IMG/VR virus record: IMGVR_UViG_3300042539_001740
DNA length: 64,000 bases
Direction: 5' to 3' (one strand)
Origin: a virus
Taxonomy: Duplodnaviria > Caudoviricetes
The notes below the pieces were generated by a model, which saw only the letters and a list, made by a program, of their open reading frames with translations, made no database searches and had not been told where the DNA came from. Shown piece after piece: positions 982 to 16,698 of this stretch; the stretch's first letter is position 1, and the number at the start of each line of letters is the position of its first letter. The translations under genes and the position numbers were made by a program.

Positions 982-1066
982 GGTCGGGTGGTGAAATTGG
1001 TATCCACGCAACACTTAAACCGTTGTGGTCAGTAAGACCTTATGAGTTCGAGTCTCATCCCGACTA
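982..1066 (+). tRNA. tRNA-Leu(TAA)
   Basis: Acceptor GGTCGGG/CCCGACT, discriminator A, 3-bp D stem, loop CT-TAA-AC, long variable arm, T arm ATGAG-TTCGAGT-CTCAT. CCA not encoded. Confidence 0.9.
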
Positions 1067-1073
1067 CAAAAAT

Positions 1074-1150
1074 ACCCCCTTGGCGGAATAGGTAGACGCG
1101 CATCATTTAGGATGATGTTTTGATTGAGAGTTCGATTCTCTCAGGGGGTA
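1074..1150 (+). tRNA. tRNA-Leu(TAG) with short variable region
   Basis: Acceptor ACCCCCT/AGGGGGT, discriminator A, anticodon arm CATCA-TTTAGGA-TGATG, 8-nt variable region, T arm GAGAG-TTCGATT-CTCTC. CCA not encoded. Confidence 0.85.
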
Positions 1151-1239
1151 CAAAAATTATCTTATGCTTTATGTAATGTTAATTGTACTATTAATATTTT
1201 ATATGTTGGGATTTTTAGATACTGACATTTAGGATATTT

Positions 1240-10154: not shown

Positions 10155-10946
10155 ATGGAACAAAATATCAATTTTTTAAAAAGGGTTTTATCTGTCCCCA
10201 CAAAAACATATAAAGAGGATTTAATGATTCAATTTTTAACCGAATGGTTGGTTGAAAATAATATTCCTTATTTTGTTGATAAGATGGGAAATGTTTATGC
10301 AACCAAACAAACTGATGAGGTTGAATATTTTCCTTGTGTCGTTGCCCACACAGATACCGTTCACGAGCTCGATACAATCAATATTCGTGAGATGATGTTA
10401 CCCAATGACCAAAACGAATTAAAGATGGCCTTAAAGGCTTTTAATGACCAAGGATTACCCACTGGAATTGGGGGTGATGACAAATGTGGTGTTTATGTTT
10501 GTTTGGAGTTATTAAAACAATTACCAAATGTCAAAGCAGCTTTCTTTGTATCGGAAGAAACAGGATGTCATGGGTCAAAAAAAGCCGATAAAGATTTCTT
10601 CTCAAATGTTGGTTATGTTATGCAATTTGATGCTCCTGGTAATTGGATGGTCAGTGAGTATTGTATGGGTGTCAAACTATTTGATAAGGGTAGTGATTTC
10701 TTCGATAAATGTGACAAAGTATTAACGGAGGGTTTTAATAGTCGAAACAAATACCAATCCCACCCTTATACTGATGTTTACGCACTTAAACAACTATTTG
10801 ATTTTTCCTGTATAAACTTTGCTGTTGGTTATTACAACTATCACACAGAACACGAATATGTAATTGTTGATGATGTATATAATACTTTGGATATTGCTAA
10901 GAAAATGATATCTGAGTTGGGTACAAAAAAATACACTAAAAAATAA
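10155..10946 (+). CDS. M28/M20-clan Zn peptidase
   Basis: VAHTDTVH, GGDDKCG, SEETGC, FD and YHT metal-ligand motifs. Confidence 0.8.
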   Translation: MEQNINFLKRVLSVPTKTYKEDLMIQFLTEWLVENNIPYFVDKMGNVYATKQTDEVEYFPCVVAHTDTVHELDTINIREMMLPNDQNELKMALKAFNDQGLPTGIGGDDKCGVYVCLELLKQLPNVKAAFFVSEETGCHGSKKADKDFFSNVGYVMQFDAPGNWMVSEYCMGVKLFDKGSDFFDKCDKVLTEGFNSRNKYQSHPYTDVYALKQLFDFSCINFAVGYYNYHTEHEYVIVDDVYNTLDIAKKMISELGTKKYTKK

Positions 10947-11659: not shown

Positions 11660-11661
11660 TA

Positions 11662-11689
11662 AAAAAAGGGACTATTCAGTCCCTTTTTT
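11662..11689. terminator. Bidirectional terminator
   Basis: AAAAAAGGGACT-ATTC-AGTCCCTTTTTT between convergent genes. Confidence 0.85.
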
Positions 11690-13702
11690 CTTTTTGGTTT
11701 TTTTGGTTTCCTTTTCTTTGAAAATTATACTTTCATTATCTACGGTTAGAATGTATTGTTCATTTTCTATAATTTTACCATTTAACACCTCTTCTGATAC
11801 AAAATCTTCAATTTTATCTTGAATTGCTCTTTTGATTGGTCTGGCACCATATGTTTCATCAAAACCAACTTTAGAAATTAATTCTAAAACTGAATCATCA
11901 CAAGAAATATTATAATTCAAACCTTCTAATCTTTTAATTAGTTTATCGACCTCTAATTTAACAATTTGTTTTACTTCGTCTTCCTTCAATGTATTAAAAA
12001 CAATAATTTCATCAATACGATTAAGGAATTCAGGGGCAAAGAATTTCTGCAATTCCTTTTTTAACATATCCCTTTTATGTTCCTCTTCAATGTAAACATT
12101 CGCGTTTGTTTTGAATCCAACACCAGTACCAAAATCTTGTAGTTTTTTGACACCAAGGTTTGAGGTCATAATAATGATACAATTCTTGAAATTAATTTTT
12201 CTTCCAAGACCATCAGTAAGATGTCCATCGTCTAAAACTTGGAGTAACGTTGCAAACACGTCTTTATTTGCTTTCTCAATTTCATCGAATAAAATAACTG
12301 AATATGGTTTATTTTTCACTTGTTCGGTAAGTTGTCCCCCTTCATCGTAACCAACGTAACCTGGAGGTGAACCAATTAATCTTGATATTGAATGTTTTTC
12401 TTGGAATTCTGACATATCAACACGGATTAGATTTTCTTCACTACCAAATATTTCCTTAGCTAATTGTTTGGCTAAATAAGTTTTACCCACACCTGTTGAG
12501 CCTAAGAAAATAAATGAACCAATTGGTTTATTAGGGTCTTTAATCCCCAATCTATTTCTCCTTATTGCTTTTGCGATTTTAAGAACAGCTTCTGATTGTC
12601 CAATAACTTTCGAAGCCAAATTGTTATCAAGAGATGAAAGTTTATTAGTTTCATCAGAATCCATTTTTGAGACAGGAATCTTAGTCATATTAGATACAAC
12701 TTCATAAACTAGTTCCACACTAACTTCTTTCTTTTTGTTTAATAAATCAAATTCGAATTTCTTTTTTTCCTCTTCTAACTTATCTAATATTTTTGTTTCC
12801 TTATCTCTTAAATCTGCAGCCAGTTCATAGTTTTGACTTTTTACAACATCTATTTTTTGTTTTTTTATTTCTTGGGCTTGTGTTTTCAAATCCTCCACAA
12901 TTTGGGGCATTTTAATTTCAACCTGACTTCTTGCTCCGACTTCATCAATAATGTCAAATGCCTTATCCGGAAATTCTCTATCTGTAATATATCTTTCTGC
13001 TAAATCAACACAAAGTTTAAGTACATCATCACTATAATTTACTTTATGGTAATTTTCATATTTGTCTTTGACATTTAATAAAATTTGTAATGTTTCATCT
13101 TTAGTTGATGGGTCAACAATTACTTTTTGGAATCGTCTTTCTAATGCCCCATCTTTTTCAAAATTCTTTCTATATTCATCCAAAGTGGTTGCACCAATAC
13201 ATTGGATTTCCCCTCTTGCTAAGGCTGGTTTAAATATGTTAGAGGCATCCAATGAACCTGATGAATTACCTGCACCAACAATTTGATGGATTTCATCGAT
13301 AAACAAAATGATATTTGGGGCGGCTTGTAGTTCTTCTATAATCACCTTCATTCTTTCCTCAAATTGTCCTCTATATTTTGTACCTGCAACAATTGAGGTC
13401 ATATCTAAGGACATAATTCTTTTATCCATTAGATTTCTTGGACAATCTCCATTCAATATTTTCAAGGCCAAACCTTCTACTATAGCGGTTTTTCCACAAC
13501 CTGGTTCACCGATTATAATTGGATTATTTTTCTTTCTTCTTGATAATATTTGGGCTATTCTTGTTATTTCTCTATCTCTACCTACAACAGGGTCTAATTT
13601 TCCCTCCTCCGCAAGTTTAACCAAATCTTTTGCAAAATTATTTAATACTGGTGTGTCGCCCTTACCTTTACTTGAGTAATCTCCATCTTTAGATTCTATC
13701 AT
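11672..13702 (-). CDS. clpC: ClpC-type AAA+ unfoldase lacking the N-terminal Clp-repeat domain (likely start ATG 13702)
   Basis: Two AAA modules (GEPGCGKT, FIDEIH; GSTGVGKT, LFDEIEK), UVR-type M domain (NYELAADLRD) and a VGF ClpP-docking loop. Confidence 0.92.
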   Translation of the reverse strand: MIESKDGDYSSKGKGDTPVLNNFAKDLVKLAEEGKLDPVVGRDREITRIAQILSRRKKNNPIIIGEPGCGKTAIVEGLALKILNGDCPRNLMDKRIMSLDMTSIVAGTKYRGQFEERMKVIIEELQAAPNIILFIDEIHQIVGAGNSSGSLDASNIFKPALARGEIQCIGATTLDEYRKNFEKDGALERRFQKVIVDPSTKDETLQILLNVKDKYENYHKVNYSDDVLKLCVDLAERYITDREFPDKAFDIIDEVGARSQVEIKMPQIVEDLKTQAQEIKKQKIDVVKSQNYELAADLRDKETKILDKLEEEKKKFEFDLLNKKKEVSVELVYEVVSNMTKIPVSKMDSDETNKLSSLDNNLASKVIGQSEAVLKIAKAIRRNRLGIKDPNKPIGSFIFLGSTGVGKTYLAKQLAKEIFGSEENLIRVDMSEFQEKHSISRLIGSPPGYVGYDEGGQLTEQVKNKPYSVILFDEIEKANKDVFATLLQVLDDGHLTDGLGRKINFKNCIIIMTSNLGVKKLQDFGTGVGFKTNANVYIEEEHKRDMLKKELQKFFAPEFLNRIDEIIVFNTLKEDEVKQIVKLEVDKLIKRLEGLNYNISCDDSVLELISKVGFDETYGARPIKRAIQDKIEDFVSEEVLNGKIIENEQYILTVDNESIIFKEKETKKTKKKKGTE

Positions 13703-13755
13703 AACTTTTTTATTTAATAATAATGTTTTATTTGGTATTTTCAACAATCTTGTAA

Positions 13756-13768
13756 TGACAAAATGTCA
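13756..13768. promoter_or_regulatory. Perfect palindrome TGACA-AAA-TGTCA between divergent clpC and UVR gene
   Basis: Read directly in the intergenic region. Confidence 0.4.
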
Positions 13769-13868
13769 GTATTTTTAATTACAAAGTGACATTATTGATT
13801 ATCTTAATTAATTGGTATATAATTCGTACAATACTAAGTAAAATAAACTTAATAACAAACAATTTATT

Positions 13869-14306
13869 ATGGATAACGATTTTTATAAAAAATTTGAGAA
13901 AATTTTGGATGAGATTTTCGGTGGAAAACATAAACCAACAATTCCATTTGAAAGTTTCTTGGAGAATTTAAAGTATGATGACATTGATACTGATTTTAGT
14001 AAACTAAGAAATTCAGTTAGAAAGACAAAGGATGGAATTATTACTTCGATTCATTTTGTGATTAACCCTAACACAAAATGGTCAGCATCTAATTCAAATA
14101 CAAAGAGGGATTTGGAAACTAAATTAAACGAATGTATCCAAAACCAAGATTTTGAACAGGCGGCTAAAATCAGAGACGAAATAAAAGAACTTCAGAAAAA
14201 CAAAGGGAAAATTGAAACTCTCAAAAAAGAAATGGAAATAGCTATTGAAAAACAAGATTTCGAAAGGGCTATAGAAATCAGAGATGAATTAAAAAAAATT
14301 AATTAA
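13869..14306 (+). CDS. Tandem UVR (UvrB/C-motif) protein, candidate ClpC adaptor
   Basis: Two motifs: LNECIQNQDFEQAAKIRDEI and MEIAIEKQDFERAIEIRDEL. Confidence 0.85.
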   Translation: MDNDFYKKFEKILDEIFGGKHKPTIPFESFLENLKYDDIDTDFSKLRNSVRKTKDGIITSIHFVINPNTKWSASNSNTKRDLETKLNECIQNQDFEQAAKIRDEIKELQKNKGKIETLKKEMEIAIEKQDFERAIEIRDELKKIN

Positions 14307-14310
14307 CTTT

Positions 14311-14337
14311 AACCCCCGATATAAATGGGGGTTTTTT
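14311..14337 (+). terminator. Rho-independent terminator
   Basis: AACCCCC/GGGGGTT stem followed by a T run. Confidence 0.75.
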
Positions 14338-14349
14338 AAATTTAAAAAA

Positions 14350-14592
14350 ATGGCAATATTAAAAGAAGAAATAGTAGGTACAAAAATTATAAATGAAGTA
14401 CAATCAAGTAATTTAGTAAGAAGTGAGTATGATACAGCAACTAAAAAAATGATTGTTGAATTCAAAAATGGAACTAAATATGAATATGATGAAGTACCGC
14501 ACACAATTTACACTAGATTCAGGTTATCGGAATCCCAAGGTAAGTTTTTTAGTTCCACCATCGCTAAAAATTACAAGTACAAAAAGGTTTGA
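14350..14592 (+). CDS. KTSC-domain protein
   Basis: SSNLVRSEYD...MIVEFKNGTKYEYDEVP..IY..F..SESQGKFF...I...Y. Confidence 0.85.
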   Translation: MAILKEEIVGTKIINEVQSSNLVRSEYDTATKKMIVEFKNGTKYEYDEVPHTIYTRFRLSESQGKFFSSTIAKNYKYKKV

Positions 14593-14627
14593 TGTATATT
14601 TCCAATGTATGTGAATATTTATCAGAC

Positions 14628-15389
14628 ATGGATAATATTGAAAATATTTTAAGTAGTTTCGAGGTACAAGACCAGTTGTATCCAAAAATATGGTATCTAC
14701 CAAATGAAAAACATATGGGTGACCCTGAAGGTCAGAAATATAAAATAAACCCAAAGGTTAGAAAAAATTTACTTGAGATAACTTACCAATTTATTGAAAG
14801 TTTGGACATTGACGTTGTTATTGAAGACATTATTGTAGTTGGTTCAATAGCTAACTATAATTGGTCTAAGTTCTCAGACATTGACGTGCACATATTAGTT
14901 GATTACAAACAATTTTCCAATGAACTTAAAGATATGTACGTTGAATATTTTGATTTGAAAAAAGTAATTTTCAATCAAAAAAGAGATGTAAAAATGTTTG
15001 GTTTTGATGTTGAGTTTTTCATTGAGGATACTGATATGCAAGGTATCAGTGGAGGTGTTTATTCGTTACTGAATGATGAATGGTTAAAAACACCCAAAAG
15101 GTTTGATTTTAAAGTGGATTTGAAAGATGTAAAAAATAAATCTAAACAATGGATGAGAACTATTGATTCTTCGATAAAAAATATGGAAGACCAAGATATT
15201 GACACAATCGAAAAAACACTAAATCAATTTAAAAATAAACTTAAAAAGTTTAGATTAAGTGGTTTAAAAGGGGGTGGTGAAATGAGCTTGGAAAATTTGG
15301 TTTTTAAAGTATTACGAAGAAATGGGTATATTGACAAATTATATAAAACGCCTTTAAAACTTATAGATAATAAACTTTCTATTGAGTAA
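14628..15389 (+). CDS. Pol-beta superfamily nucleotidyltransferase (likely start ATG 14628)
   Basis: VVGSIANYNWSKFSDIDVH (GS..DxD) plus a third acidic residue in DVEFF; TATTTAT at 14616. Confidence 0.8.
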   Translation: MDNIENILSSFEVQDQLYPKIWYLPNEKHMGDPEGQKYKINPKVRKNLLEITYQFIESLDIDVVIEDIIVVGSIANYNWSKFSDIDVHILVDYKQFSNELKDMYVEYFDLKKVIFNQKRDVKMFGFDVEFFIEDTDMQGISGGVYSLLNDEWLKTPKRFDFKVDLKDVKNKSKQWMRTIDSSIKNMEDQDIDTIEKTLNQFKNKLKKFRLSGLKGGGEMSLENLVFKVLRRNGYIDKLYKTPLKLIDNKLSIE

Positions 15390-15450: not shown

Positions 15451-16698
15451 ATGGGAAAATTAAAACCTATTGGTAGTGAAAAATTAGGAGGAATGGAAAA
15501 AATTCAAAGGATTTTGGAAATTTCTAAATATAATTTAAATACTCCTCAGTCAATTAACGAGAGTGAATCTTTAGAATATTCAAAAACATTAGCTGATGGA
15601 AATACATATCATATCACAAAAGAAAAAAATGGATATGTTATTAAAAAAGGGTTGACCGAATCAGTTAGTGAATATATTGAGCCGATGAAAAATAGAAAGT
15701 ATTATTCGTCTTATTCACAAGCATTGAAACGTTTAAACCTTATTGTGAAAGAGGTAAATGTAAATGAGGGTTATAGAGGAAACTTGTCATTATTTAACGA
15801 ACAAGAAAATATTGATGACAAAAAATATTTTTTAGTAAAAGGTGGTGAAACCAATGAACAAGAAGAAACTCAAATTCCACCAGCACCAGCAGCACCTGCG
15901 ACACCACCAGCTGTACCAGCAACACCTGAAACTGAAATGCCTATCGAAGAACCATTACCCGCTGAAGAACCTATGACAGATGAGATGCCAATGGATGATG
16001 AAGTTCCTATGGATGGTGAGGGTGAAACTCCACAAGAGGAAGATGTTGTTACTTTCAAAAGTATTCAAAAACTTACTGGTAAATTAGCTCAAAAACTTAG
16101 AACATTTGGTACTGATGAAGATAATGATATGTCATCCCAAGATGTAAAATATGTTATTAATTCAATTTTGTCTGCTTTGGACTTAAGTAAACTTGAACCT
16201 GACGACATTGAAGAAATTACTTCAAAATTTGAAGAGGGGGAAGAAATTGAAGAACCTGAAATGAGTGATGAGGAATTACCTGAACCTGAAATGGGTGGTG
16301 AAGAATTACCTGAACCTGAGATGGGTGGTGAAGAATTACCTGAACCTGAAATACCAGTTGCACCAGAAGGTGAAATGGCTGAAATGTACCCAAGACACGG
16401 AAGAAGAGAAAGTTTTGAGGAACGTCAACACAAAATGAGGATGAAAGAAATGGGATATGGTGTATCTGAATCAAAAGTTGACAGAATATTACAAAAGTAT
16501 TTCAATGAAACTCCAAAAAATATTAATGAAAGTAAGTTGGAAAGGTTATCCGAAAACTTTAAACAAGAATCAACTTCAAAAAGATTTTTGAACAAATACC
16601 CCTCCGCTAAACTTATTGGTAAAAACAAAAAGGGAACTTTAGTTTTTGAAATGGAAGGAGAAAAATTTGGCGTAACAACAAGTGGTAGATTGATATGA
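15451..16698 (+). CDS. Acidic Pro/Glu-rich protein, prohead-core-like
   Basis: Low-complexity acidic linker, many L/I-x-E sites, located in the head module. Confidence 0.6.
   Translation: MGKLKPIGSEKLGGMEKIQRILEISKYNLNTPQSINESESLEYSKTLADGNTYHITKEKNGYVIKKGLTESVSEYIEPMKNRKYYSSYSQALKRLNLIVKEVNVNEGYRGNLSLFNEQENIDDKKYFLVKGGETNEQEETQIPPAPAAPATPPAVPATPETEMPIEEPLPAEEPMTDEMPMDDEVPMDGEGETPQEEDVVTFKSIQKLTGKLAQKLRTFGTDEDNDMSSQDVKYVINSILSALDLSKLEPDDIEEITSKFEEGEEIEEPEMSDEELPEPEMGGEELPEPEMGGEELPEPEIPVAPEGEMAEMYPRHGRRESFEERQHKMRMKEMGYGVSESKVDRILQKYFNETPKNINESKLERLSENFKQESTSKRFLNKYPSAKLIGKNKKGTLVFEMEGEKFGVTTSGRLI
16252..16350 (+). repeat. 30-nt coding tandem repeat (EPEMGGEELP x ~3)
   Basis: gaacctgaaatgggtggtgaagaattacct units. 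Confidence 0.85.

What the first reader, a model, noticed from the sequence alone, without database searches (positions are those of the whole stretch)
11672..14306. N-domain-less ClpC divergently paired with a tandem-UVR protein: phage-encoded unfoldase/adaptor module
Seen: ClpC starts directly at the AAA-1 region (no Clp-repeat N domain) but keeps a UVR-type M domain and a VGF ClpP-docking loop. The adjacent divergent gene carries two UVR motifs. Established: UVR coiled coils pair head-to-head, ClpC M-domain contacts control its resting state, and McsA carries a UVR motif. Inference: the small protein activates or targets ClpC through its M domains in place of the missing N domain, and the complex borrows a ClpP. 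Possible substrates are tmRNA-tagged proteins, host defence proteins or head-assembly intermediates.
Basis: partly seen in the sequence, partly recalled or inferred. Interest (0 to 1): 0.7.

Follow-up and report, generated by a model that had tools for sequence, protein, structure and literature searches.

The report
Headless phage ClpC with swappable helper
An uncultured lake jumbo phage carries a ClpC protein-unfolding motor that lacks its usual regulatory head, next to a small virus-only protein made of two ClpC-like coiled-coil hairpins. The two genes are very often neighbours and share a control site, but sister phages put a small heat-shock protein or nothing in that place, so the small protein is probably an optional stress-regulated helper and not a fixed part of the motor.

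Summary
Window 11672-13702(-) encodes a 676-aa ClpC with both AAA+ modules, an M-domain with a UVR motif and a VGF loop that aligns with the S. aureus AGF ClpP-docking motif. It has no Clp_N domain. Window 13869-14306(+) encodes a 145-aa protein with two UVR hairpins.

- **Linkage:** in 76 of 78 related viral loci found with the UVR protein, an N-less ClpC lies divergently upstream.
- **Shared control site:** a 13-bp palindrome, TGACA-N3-TGTCA, sits between the two genes. It occurs once in the window and nowhere else in 801 kb of related flanks.
- **Not obligatory:** in 76 distinct loci found with ClpC, the slot holds the UVR gene in 41, an Hsp20 small heat-shock protein in 15 and neither in 20. 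The palindrome follows the slot gene.
- **Second lineage:** there a family member directly precedes a phage Hsp70, behind the same palindrome.

So the protein is most likely an optional, heat-shock-type cofactor. Docking on the ClpC M-domain is plausible but not shown. The "borrowed ClpP" is also unproven: two relatives encode their own ClpP and this record is only 66% complete.

This scan had already reported the same gene pair in other jumbo phages. I found no published description.

The parts
11672..13702 (-). N-domain-less ClpC-type Hsp100 unfoldase, 676 aa. The ORF extends to a TTG at 13747, but the ATG at 13702 is the likely start.
   Evidence: Pfam and PHROG matches. Alignment to S. aureus ClpC 155-811. 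Relatives of 672-676 aa start at the same Met.
13487..13510 (-). D1 Walker A, GEPGCGKT, with an unusual Cys (Cys69, invariant in the clade). In relatives this is the insertion point of a split intein.
   Evidence: Read from the sequence. Invariant C69 in alignment A2. Split alleles in L042 and L019.
12788..12877 (-). M-domain UVR hairpin of ClpC. The tip residue Tyr292 corresponds to S. aureus F436.
   Evidence: PF02151 match of 26.6 bits. Alignment to S. aureus ClpC. Role of F436 from PMC12583610.
12113..12121 (-). VGF tripeptide of the ClpP-docking P-loop (FGTGVGFK).
   Evidence: Aligns with S. aureus AGF 671-673. G529 and F530 are invariant and V528 nearly so.
13756..13768 (.). Palindrome TGACAAAATGTCA between the divergent genes. 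Candidate operator.
   Evidence: Only copy in the window, 0.06 expected. Exact copy upstream of the UVR gene in 53 of 62 distinct related loci, and none elsewhere in 801 kb. It follows the slot gene, whether UVR, sHSP or UVR-Hsp70.
13717..13744 (-). Sigma-70-like promoter candidate for clpC.
   Evidence: Consensus scan, 10 of 12 positions. A pattern match only.
13795..13823 (+). Sigma-70-like promoter candidate for the UVR gene (TTGATT-17-TATAAT). It overlaps a conserved TTGGTATATAAT block.
   Evidence: A pattern match plus conservation.
13869..14306 (+). Tandem-UVR protein, 145 aa. It has an N-terminal helix, a low-confidence hairpin region and then helix-turn-long helix-turn-helix.
   Evidence: Pfam UVR twice. 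AlphaFold2 gives pLDDT 95-98 for residues 78-145. Large virus-only family.
14106..14198 (+). UVR motif 1 (tip Phe95).
   Evidence: 46.8 bits. Near-invariant F95.
14205..14300 (+). UVR motif 2 (tip Phe131). This is the most conserved part of the protein.
   Evidence: 42.9 bits. Invariant columns Q129, E132, A134, I135, I137, R138, D139, E140.
14311..14333 (+). Intrinsic-terminator-like hairpin directly after the UVR gene.
11661..11690 (.). Bidirectional terminator-like hairpin at the 3' end of clpC.
10155..10946 (+). M42/M28-like zinc peptidase. It always lies within a few kb of this ClpC in relatives, and in about a quarter of loci it sits directly downstream on the same strand.
   Evidence: Pfam and PHROG 4191. 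Synteny.

Best explanation
The locus is a phage proteostasis cassette.

**The motor.** The ClpC is a complete, ClpP-competent Hsp100 unfoldase without an N domain. It should therefore be blind to adaptors and phospho-arginine tags that act through the N domain.

**The slot.** Directly upstream and divergent lies a variable cofactor slot, controlled by a TGACA-N3-TGTCA operator. In this phage the slot holds a virus-only tandem-UVR protein. In sister phages it holds a small heat-shock protein or is empty.

**Proposed role.** The tandem-UVR protein most likely acts as an optional, stress- or stage-regulated helper. Its poorly ordered N-terminal part would hold or select client proteins. Its two UVR hairpins each carry the same aromatic tip residue that mediates head-to-head contacts between ClpC M-domains. 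They would dock on the M-domain tips (Tyr292), which would hand over clients and keep the N-less ClpC out of the M-domain-mediated resting state. Degradation would then run through a ClpP, which is phage-encoded in some relatives, with the neighbouring M42-like peptidase trimming the products.

**Shown:** gene content, motifs, linkage, the swap, and the conserved operator.

**Inferred:** every binding step, the direction of regulation, the ClpP partner and the clients.
For: - **ClpC anatomy:** intact.
- **Conservation:** ClpC is 90-98% identical across relatives whose UVR protein has drifted to 44-59%.
- **Adjacency:** kept in 76 of 78 loci found with the UVR protein, despite a flipped peptidase gene, insertions of up to 2.5 kb on the other side and an intein insertion in clpC.
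- **Co-occurrence without adjacency:** seen in record G001, where the only three UVR motifs are again these.
- **Operator:** unique to this intergenic region and conserved.
- **Slot alternatives:** the other occupants or neighbours are classical chaperones, Hsp20 and Hsp70.
- **Aromatic tip:** conserved in all three UVR hairpins.
- **Published precedent:** delta-N ClpC needs loss of M-domain contacts to become active, and then degrades SsrA-tagged GFP (PMC12583610).
- **Related observation in plastids:** proteins with a UVR domain are enriched on trapped plastid CLPC1 (PMC8889267).
- **Distribution:** the family appears restricted to viruses.
Against: - The N-less ClpC occurs without this protein in 35 of 76 distinct loci found with ClpC. 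Five such records show no second UVR motif in 61-113 kb. The protein is therefore not required for ClpC function.
- The whole region is collinear within one phage clade, so part of the linkage is inherited and says nothing about function.
- Three huge phages whose ClpC lacks the N domain (59% identity in two, 47% in the third) have no tandem-UVR protein.
- In a second lineage the family member is coupled to Hsp70, which has no M-domain. UVR-to-M-domain pairing cannot be the family's only mode of action.
- The McsA coiled-coil/UVR domain is reported to act in self-assembly, so self-assembly is an alternative role for the UVR hairpins.
Confidence: 0.42

Rival explanations
1. **Stand-alone holdase.** The protein works like the small heat-shock protein that replaces it. 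It binds unfolding or unassembled proteins through its N-terminal part and self-assembles through its UVR hairpins. It never touches ClpC directly, and ClpC (or Hsp70) only meets its clients.
For: - It swaps gene for gene with Hsp20 proteins behind the same operator.
- It is coupled to Hsp70 in another lineage.
- UVR or coiled-coil domains serve self-association in McsA.
- The N-terminal F..LFD.FF motif resembles the N-terminal region of the phage sHSPs, but weakly.
Against: - The resemblance to sHSP N-termini is not significant (hhalign probability 8%).
- It does not explain why the hairpins keep the ClpC-type aromatic tip, or why the family is so consistently placed beside an Hsp100 or Hsp70.
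Confidence: 0.27
2. **Hsp70-Hsp100 coupler.** One UVR hairpin pairs with the short ClpC M-domain and the other binds Hsp70. This would supply in trans the half of a ClpB-type M-domain that ClpC lacks, so that ClpC can cooperate with DnaK.
For: - The family sits beside ClpC in one lineage and directly before Hsp70 in another.
- This phage also encodes a J-domain protein.
- The predicted helix-turn-long helix-turn-helix layout has the same order of elements as a ClpB M-domain. This comparison rests on my own knowledge.
Against: - Fold searches return only generic helical matches, with no ClpB M-domain among the top 50.
- No Hsp70 is encoded in the held part of this genome.
- There is no direct evidence of either contact.
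Confidence: 0.1
3. **Neighbours by descent only.** The two genes sit together because the whole region is collinear in one phage clade. The shared UVR motif is a coincidence of a common coiled-coil motif.
For: - The full block (peptidase, ClpC, UVR, KTSC, nucleotidyltransferase-like gene, and onward to terminase) is collinear.
- ClpC is simply the one inverted gene in the block.
- The slot is often empty.
Against: - Adjacency survives rearrangements on both sides.
- The genes co-occur when unlinked.
- The operator is locus-specific.
- The alternative occupants and neighbours are all chaperones.
Confidence: 0.1
4. **Autoregulator or anti-host factor.** Either the small protein binds the palindrome and controls its own promoter and that of clpC, or its hairpins target host proteins that carry UVR motifs (host ClpC or ClpB M-domains, UvrB/UvrC).
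For: - The palindrome travels with the UVR gene in two lineages.
- UVR hairpins pair with other UVR hairpins in UvrB and UvrC (own knowledge; also quoted in PMC8889267).
Against: - The same palindrome also precedes sHSP genes in loci that lack the UVR protein, so another factor must bind it.
- No DNA-binding fold was predicted.
- There is no evidence on host targets.
Confidence: 0.06

Closest known systems
ClpC-ClpP with the MecA adaptor, and engineered delta-N ClpC of Staphylococcus aureus (PMC5699869, PMC12583610, bioRxiv 10.1101/2025.06.06.658286)
   Same: Two AAA+ rings, a short M-domain with an aromatic tip and a ClpP-docking loop. Control of activity through M-domain contacts. The phage protein corresponds almost exactly to the laboratory delta-N construct.
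   Different: The N domain is absent naturally. The tip residue is Tyr where S. aureus has Phe. Walker A carries a Cys. The candidate partner is unrelated to MecA and consists of two UVR hairpins.
McsA (with McsB) of the Bacillus clpC operon (PMC11046695)
   Same: A small protein with a UVR/coiled-coil motif encoded next to clpC in a heat-shock-regulated unit. It is the best sequence match in the PDB (E 1.8e-5).
   Different: The phage protein has no zinc-finger CXXC motifs, the genome shows no McsB, and there are two UVR motifs where McsA has one. The McsA coiled coil is reported to serve McsAB assembly. The JGI label 'McsA' rests on the UVR motif alone.
Plastid CLPC1 interactors with UVR domains: CLPF, EXE1/2, UVR2-4 (PMC8889267)
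   Same: UVR-bearing proteins associate with a ClpC whose M-domain also has a UVR motif, and an adaptor or substrate role has been proposed.
   Different: Different architectures (YccV, DUF151 and others), a single UVR motif and a eukaryotic organelle setting. There too, binding through the UVR motif is unproven.
Small heat-shock proteins working with Hsp70 and Hsp100 disaggregases
   Same: An Hsp20 gene occupies the same slot, in the same orientation and behind the same palindrome, in sister phages.
   Different: The window's protein has no alpha-crystallin domain. Similarity is limited to a short N-terminal motif and is not significant.
ClpI unfoldases of Actinomycetota (PMC10149685)
   Same: A ClpC-like enzyme with a short M-domain, Tyr at the tip, and a variable or atypical N-terminus.
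   Different: ClpI is cellular and keeps an N-terminal domain. Some ClpI lack the ClpP loop. No tandem-UVR neighbour is reported.

Membership tests
ClpC (class I Hsp100/Clp ATPase that works with ClpP) | Two AAA+ modules with intact Walker A/B motifs and pore loops | tested here: met
   Pfam AAA, AAA_lid_9, AAA_2 and ClpB_D2-small. GEPGCGKT, ILFIDEIH, KYR, GSTGVGKT, VILFDEIEKA and GYVG are read from the sequence and invariant in A2.
ClpC (class I Hsp100/Clp ATPase that works with ClpP) | Short M-domain with a UVR-type hairpin inserted in D1 | tested here: met
   PF02151 scores 26.6 bits in the genome scan and 21.3 bits in hmmscan. The region aligns to the S. aureus M-domain.
ClpC (class I Hsp100/Clp ATPase that works with ClpP) | ClpP-docking loop with an x-G-F tripeptide in D2 | tested here: met
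   VGF aligns with S. aureus AGF 671-673.
ClpC (class I Hsp100/Clp ATPase that works with ClpP) | Conserved Clp_N (double Clp repeat) N-terminal domain | tested here: not met
   No PF02861 in the protein or in the 194-kb record. The PHROG profile is matched only from position 167. The alignment starts at S. aureus residue 155.
ClpC (class I Hsp100/Clp ATPase that works with ClpP) | Forms an active protease with ClpP | not testable with these tools
   No ClpP in the held 66% of the genome. Two relatives encode one.
UVR motif proteins (Pfam PF02151) | Helical hairpin matching the UvrB/UvrC motif above the curated cut-off | tested here: met
   Two matches, 46.8 and 42.9 bits. Whole-protein E 2.3e-22. 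AlphaFold2 helices at pLDDT 95-98.
McsA (protein-arginine kinase activator) | N-terminal zinc-coordinating CXXC domains and a McsB partner | tested here: not met
   The protein has a single Cys and no CXXC (sequence). No PF00217 in the record. Only the UVR part aligns with McsA.
Small heat-shock proteins (Hsp20) | Alpha-crystallin domain | tested here: not met
   No HSP20 match for the window's protein. The profile comparison with the phage sHSPs aligns 14 residues at probability 8%.
ClpB-type M-domain mimic | Fold match to the long coiled-coil M-domain | tested here: inconclusive
   Fold searches gave only generic helical matches.
Clp adaptor (functional class) | Binds the unfoldase and changes its activity or substrate choice | not testable with these tools
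   Only linkage, co-regulation and motif logic are available.

The most novel reading that the evidence does not exclude
Tandem-UVR proteins are a virus-only class of co-chaperone that plugs into the coiled-coil control elements of host-type chaperone machines. One hairpin docks on the short M-domain of an N-less ClpC and the other on Hsp70. This would give phages a private, operator-controlled way to switch on an otherwise silent unfoldase and couple it to Hsp70. The module would be interchangeable with a small heat-shock protein.
Probability: 0.12. Interest if true: 0.8.

Novelty: new variant of a known kind. Interest (0 to 1): 0.58.

Why it matters
ClpC is held in check through its N domain and its M-domain contacts, and deregulated ClpC is toxic to bacteria (PMC12583610).

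This phage clade is widespread in lake metagenomes. At least 594 viral contigs carry relatives of its ClpC. It keeps a natural N-less ClpC under very strong purifying selection and pairs it with a slot for stress-type cofactors behind a dedicated operator.

If the tandem-UVR protein does act on the M-domain, it would be the first adaptor or activator known to work purely through that element, and a natural tool for probing ClpC activation.

Even if it does not, three things remain that the papers I searched do not describe: the UVR/sHSP/empty slot, the conserved palindrome, and the link to Hsp70 in a second lineage. Together they define a phage heat-shock-like regulon.

Tried and rejected
- **Complex prediction:** ClpC residues 1-350 with the UVR protein scored 0.15 against a mark of 0.32. 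That is no verdict, and it is not used as evidence either way.
- **Fold searches:** Foldseek and two VIA-align searches of the models gave only generic helical-bundle matches. McsA reached Z 5.3-5.6. The N-terminal 75 residues stayed at low confidence even with a 71-sequence alignment.
- **Profile comparison:** UVR family against phage sHSPs was not significant.
- **Cultured and deposited phages:** tblastn of the small protein found no match.
- **Cellular genomes:** the scan with the broad alignment failed for lack of a conserved stretch. With the narrower alignment it found only hits to single UVR motifs.
- **RNA runs:** no RNA holder listed.
- **Second palindrome:** the copy at genome position 12680 lies inside an ORF upstream of a sigma-factor gene. 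About 0.2 copies are expected in 194 kb, so I treat it as possibly chance.
- **Missing ClpP:** I tried to place it by synteny. The flanks of the relatives' ClpP genes have no homologue in this record.
- **Relatives and host:** relatives of a virus record cannot be drawn, so I could not look for the palindrome in host genomes.
- **G003 Hsp70:** the Hsp70 in record G003 looks like a cellular DnaK next to a response regulator, in a record flagged as provirus. I did not count it as a phage gene.
it says the operator is shared with dnaK. I found no Hsp70 gene in this genome.
Full report
**What the window is.** The window is bases 121525-185524 (minus strand) of a 194.5-kb IMG/VR virus record that CheckV estimates to be 66% complete. 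G+C is about 30%. About 5 kb downstream of the finding lies a T4-like head module with terminase large subunit, portal, prohead protease and major head protein. The closest deposited relatives of the ClpC are uncultured huge phages. Related metagenomic contigs reach about 280 kb. This is therefore an uncultured freshwater jumbo phage.

- The ORF 11672..13747(-) most likely starts at the ATG at 13702, giving 676 aa. Relatives are 672-676 aa with the same N-terminus, and a promoter-like site lies inside the TTG extension.
- Pfam finds both AAA+ modules, the D1 lid, the D2 small domain and a UVR motif in the M-domain. It finds no Clp_N. No Clp_N exists anywhere in the record.
- PHROG 4871 is matched only from profile position 167.
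- The protein aligns from residue 11 to S. aureus ClpC residue 155. That is where D1 begins.
- The phage VGF aligns with AGF 671-673, the tripeptide that docks on ClpP and whose mutation abolishes ClpP binding.
- The Walker motifs and pore loops are intact and invariant among 20 relatives.
- The divergent gene 13869..14306(+) has two UVR motifs (E 2.3e-22). These two and the M-domain motif are the only UVR motifs in 194 kb.
- AlphaFold2 with a 71-sequence alignment gives residues 78-145 as helix, turn, 33-residue helix, turn, helix at pLDDT 95-98. Residues 1-75 stay at low confidence.

**Linkage, searching from the small protein.**
- The protein belongs to a large family. There are 135 clusters at 90% identity, 201 representatives at E<=1e-10 in a profile search and 323 relatives in IMG/VR.
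- Family members share an N-terminal F..FD.LF helix, a G.DE.G.W.K.T..S.DG stretch and two UVR hairpins.
- The family looks restricted to viruses. No full-length member turned up among 185,579 species genomes, and the Atlas clusters are 100% viral.
- In the 80 best IMG/VR loci, 76 of the 78 that hold upstream DNA have the N-less ClpC directly upstream on the opposite strand.
- ClpC is 67-98% identical across these loci, while the small protein falls to 29%.
- The adjacency survives three kinds of rearrangement: a flipped peptidase gene, insertions of up to 2.5 kb between the UVR and KTSC genes, and a split intein in clpC.
- In record G001 the two genes lie 30 kb apart. They still co-occur and again carry the only three UVR motifs of the record.

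**A shared control site.**
- The 166-bp intergenic region holds the palindrome TGACAAAATGTCA at 13756-13768. It is the only TGACA-N3-TGTCA in the window, with 0.06 expected. It is one of two in the whole record.
- Among 62 distinct related loci with at least 260 nt of DNA upstream of the UVR gene, 53 have an exact copy there and 58 have one with at most one mismatch. Many have two copies about 30 nt apart.
- Not one exact copy occurs elsewhere in 801 kb of their flanks.
- Each gene also ends in its own terminator-like hairpin.

**Linkage, searching from ClpC, changes the picture.** I tested this.
- At least 594 IMG/VR contigs carry relatives of this ClpC.
- In 76 distinct loci, the divergent slot upstream of ClpC holds a tandem-UVR gene in 41, an Hsp20/alpha-crystallin gene in 15 (all 14 tested match Pfam HSP20), and neither in 20.
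- The palindrome lies within 300 nt of clpC in 37 of 41 UVR loci, 11 of 15 sHSP loci and 1 of 20 empty loci. It therefore belongs to the slot gene.
- Five 'neither' records of 61-113 kb show no second UVR motif and no Hsp20.
- Three huge phages whose ClpC lacks the N domain (59% identity in two, 47% in the third) also lack a tandem-UVR protein. Two of them carry other proteins with a single UVR motif, including a DUF151-UVR protein.
- The small protein is therefore optional and does not replace the missing N domain.

**A second lineage.** In eight IMG/VR loci and several ENA contigs, a family member of 128-131 aa ends 6-10 nt before a phage Hsp70 of 622 aa. The same palindrome lies about 78 nt upstream, and a phage ClpP lies 5 kb downstream. 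No ClpC is present in the held 62-90 kb. Here too the chaperone is 95-97% identical while the small protein is 62-93% identical.

**Mechanism.**
- Published work shows that S. aureus delta-N ClpC has raised ATPase activity but no proteolysis. The cause is that M-domain to M-domain contacts through F436 still hold it in a resting state.
- Adding the F436A mutation makes the enzyme degrade SsrA-tagged GFP as well as MecA-activated wild type does (PMC12583610).
- The phage ClpC keeps an aromatic residue (Tyr292) at that tip. Both hairpins of the small protein keep Phe at the equivalent place.
- A protein with two tip-like hairpins could therefore cap or bridge M-domains. That is the most economical reading of the anatomy, but it remains an inference.
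- The swap with an sHSP and the coupling to Hsp70 argue just as strongly for a client-holding co-chaperone, with UVR hairpins that might only self-associate. This is the role reported for the McsA coiled coil (PMC11046695).
- I therefore commit to the following: an optional, operator-controlled cofactor of the phage ClpC. M-domain docking is the favoured mode of action but is unproven.

**ClpP and substrates.**
- No ClpP, Hsp70, Hsp20, McsB or tmRNA is found in the held 194 kb. A J-domain protein is present.
- Two related records encode a ClpP and one does not.
- The flanks of those ClpP genes have no counterpart in this record. Whether this phage borrows the host ClpP cannot be decided.
- An M42/M28-like peptidase always lies within a few kb of ClpC. 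In about a quarter of loci it lies directly downstream on the same strand. That fits a role in trimming released peptides.

**Comparison and novelty.**
- The ClpC meets every ClpC feature that I tested except the N domain. It corresponds to the laboratory delta-N construct.
- The small protein is not McsA, because it has no zinc fingers and the genome shows no McsB. It is not an sHSP either. Pfam matched it only to UVR, with no match to any named adaptor family. Only its UVR motifs match known proteins: McsA 1.8e-5, the ClpC M-domain 1.9e-4 and UvrB 2e-3.
- Literature searches found no description of a phage N-less ClpC with a UVR partner.
- Earlier reports of this scan describe the same pair in several other jumbo phages.
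- I rate it a new variant of a known kind.

Noticed in passing
window 13487-13510 (-); relatives L042:4121-7879 and L019:3185-5837: In several relatives clpC is a 'fractured gene', split by an intein inside Walker A (GEPG|CGKT).
- The N-piece is 92-107 aa and ends in a ~24-aa intein N-fragment (CVLED...).
- The C-piece is 735-741 aa and begins with a ~133-aa intein C-fragment ending ...IVSHN, followed by CGKT.
- A 393-aa ORF lies between the two pieces in L042, and only a 55-aa remnant in L019.

The window's allele is uninterrupted but keeps the unusual Cys, which would be the +1 residue for splicing. The arrangement matches the one described by Dassa et al. 2009 (PMC2677866).
   Followed up: partly
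protein P0095 (116 aa, 1.2-kb JGI contig): A chimeric ORF joins the ClpC D1 lid and the first half of the M-domain to the UVR protein from the middle of UVR motif 1 onward. This is the product expected from an inversion between the two inverted UVR-coding repeats of the divergent genes. It could also be an assembly artefact.
   Followed up: no
window 10155-10946 (+): A short (263-aa) M42/M28-like zinc peptidase is linked to the N-less ClpC throughout the clade. Its orientation flips between sub-lineages.
   Followed up: partly
window 14350-15389 (+): A KTSC-domain protein (80 aa) and a nucleotidyltransferase-like protein (266 aa, PHROG 36119) form a very stable right-hand flank of the slot in nearly all relatives. 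Their functions are unknown.
   Followed up: no
genome C1:12680-12692 (outside the window; L184:3181-3193): The only other copy of the palindrome in the record lies inside a 171-aa ORF, about 270 nt upstream of a sigma-70-family factor gene. It could be chance or a second target of the same regulator.
   Followed up: partly
genome C1:3981-4157 (outside the window): The phage encodes a J-domain protein (86 bits), but no Hsp70 in the held part. This suggests that it recruits the host DnaK.
   Followed up: no
L022:997-1605 and L024:1486-2076 (huge phages LR745206, LR756502): These huge phages, which also have an N-less ClpC, encode DUF151 (bifunctional nuclease)-UVR proteins. That is the same architecture as the Arabidopsis UVR2-4 proteins trapped on plastid CLPC1.
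   Followed up: no
window 15451-16698 (+): A 415-aa, highly acidic protein with Pro/Ala-rich tracts and tandem EELPEPEMGG repeats. It has no family match but is conserved in position in relatives.
   Followed up: no
window 982-1151 (+) and genome C1:184374-193921: Two tRNA-Leu genes in the window belong to an array of 15 phage tRNA genes at the end of the record. ARAGORN found no tmRNA in the held record, although earlier notes of this scan report tmRNAs in related phages.
   Followed up: partly
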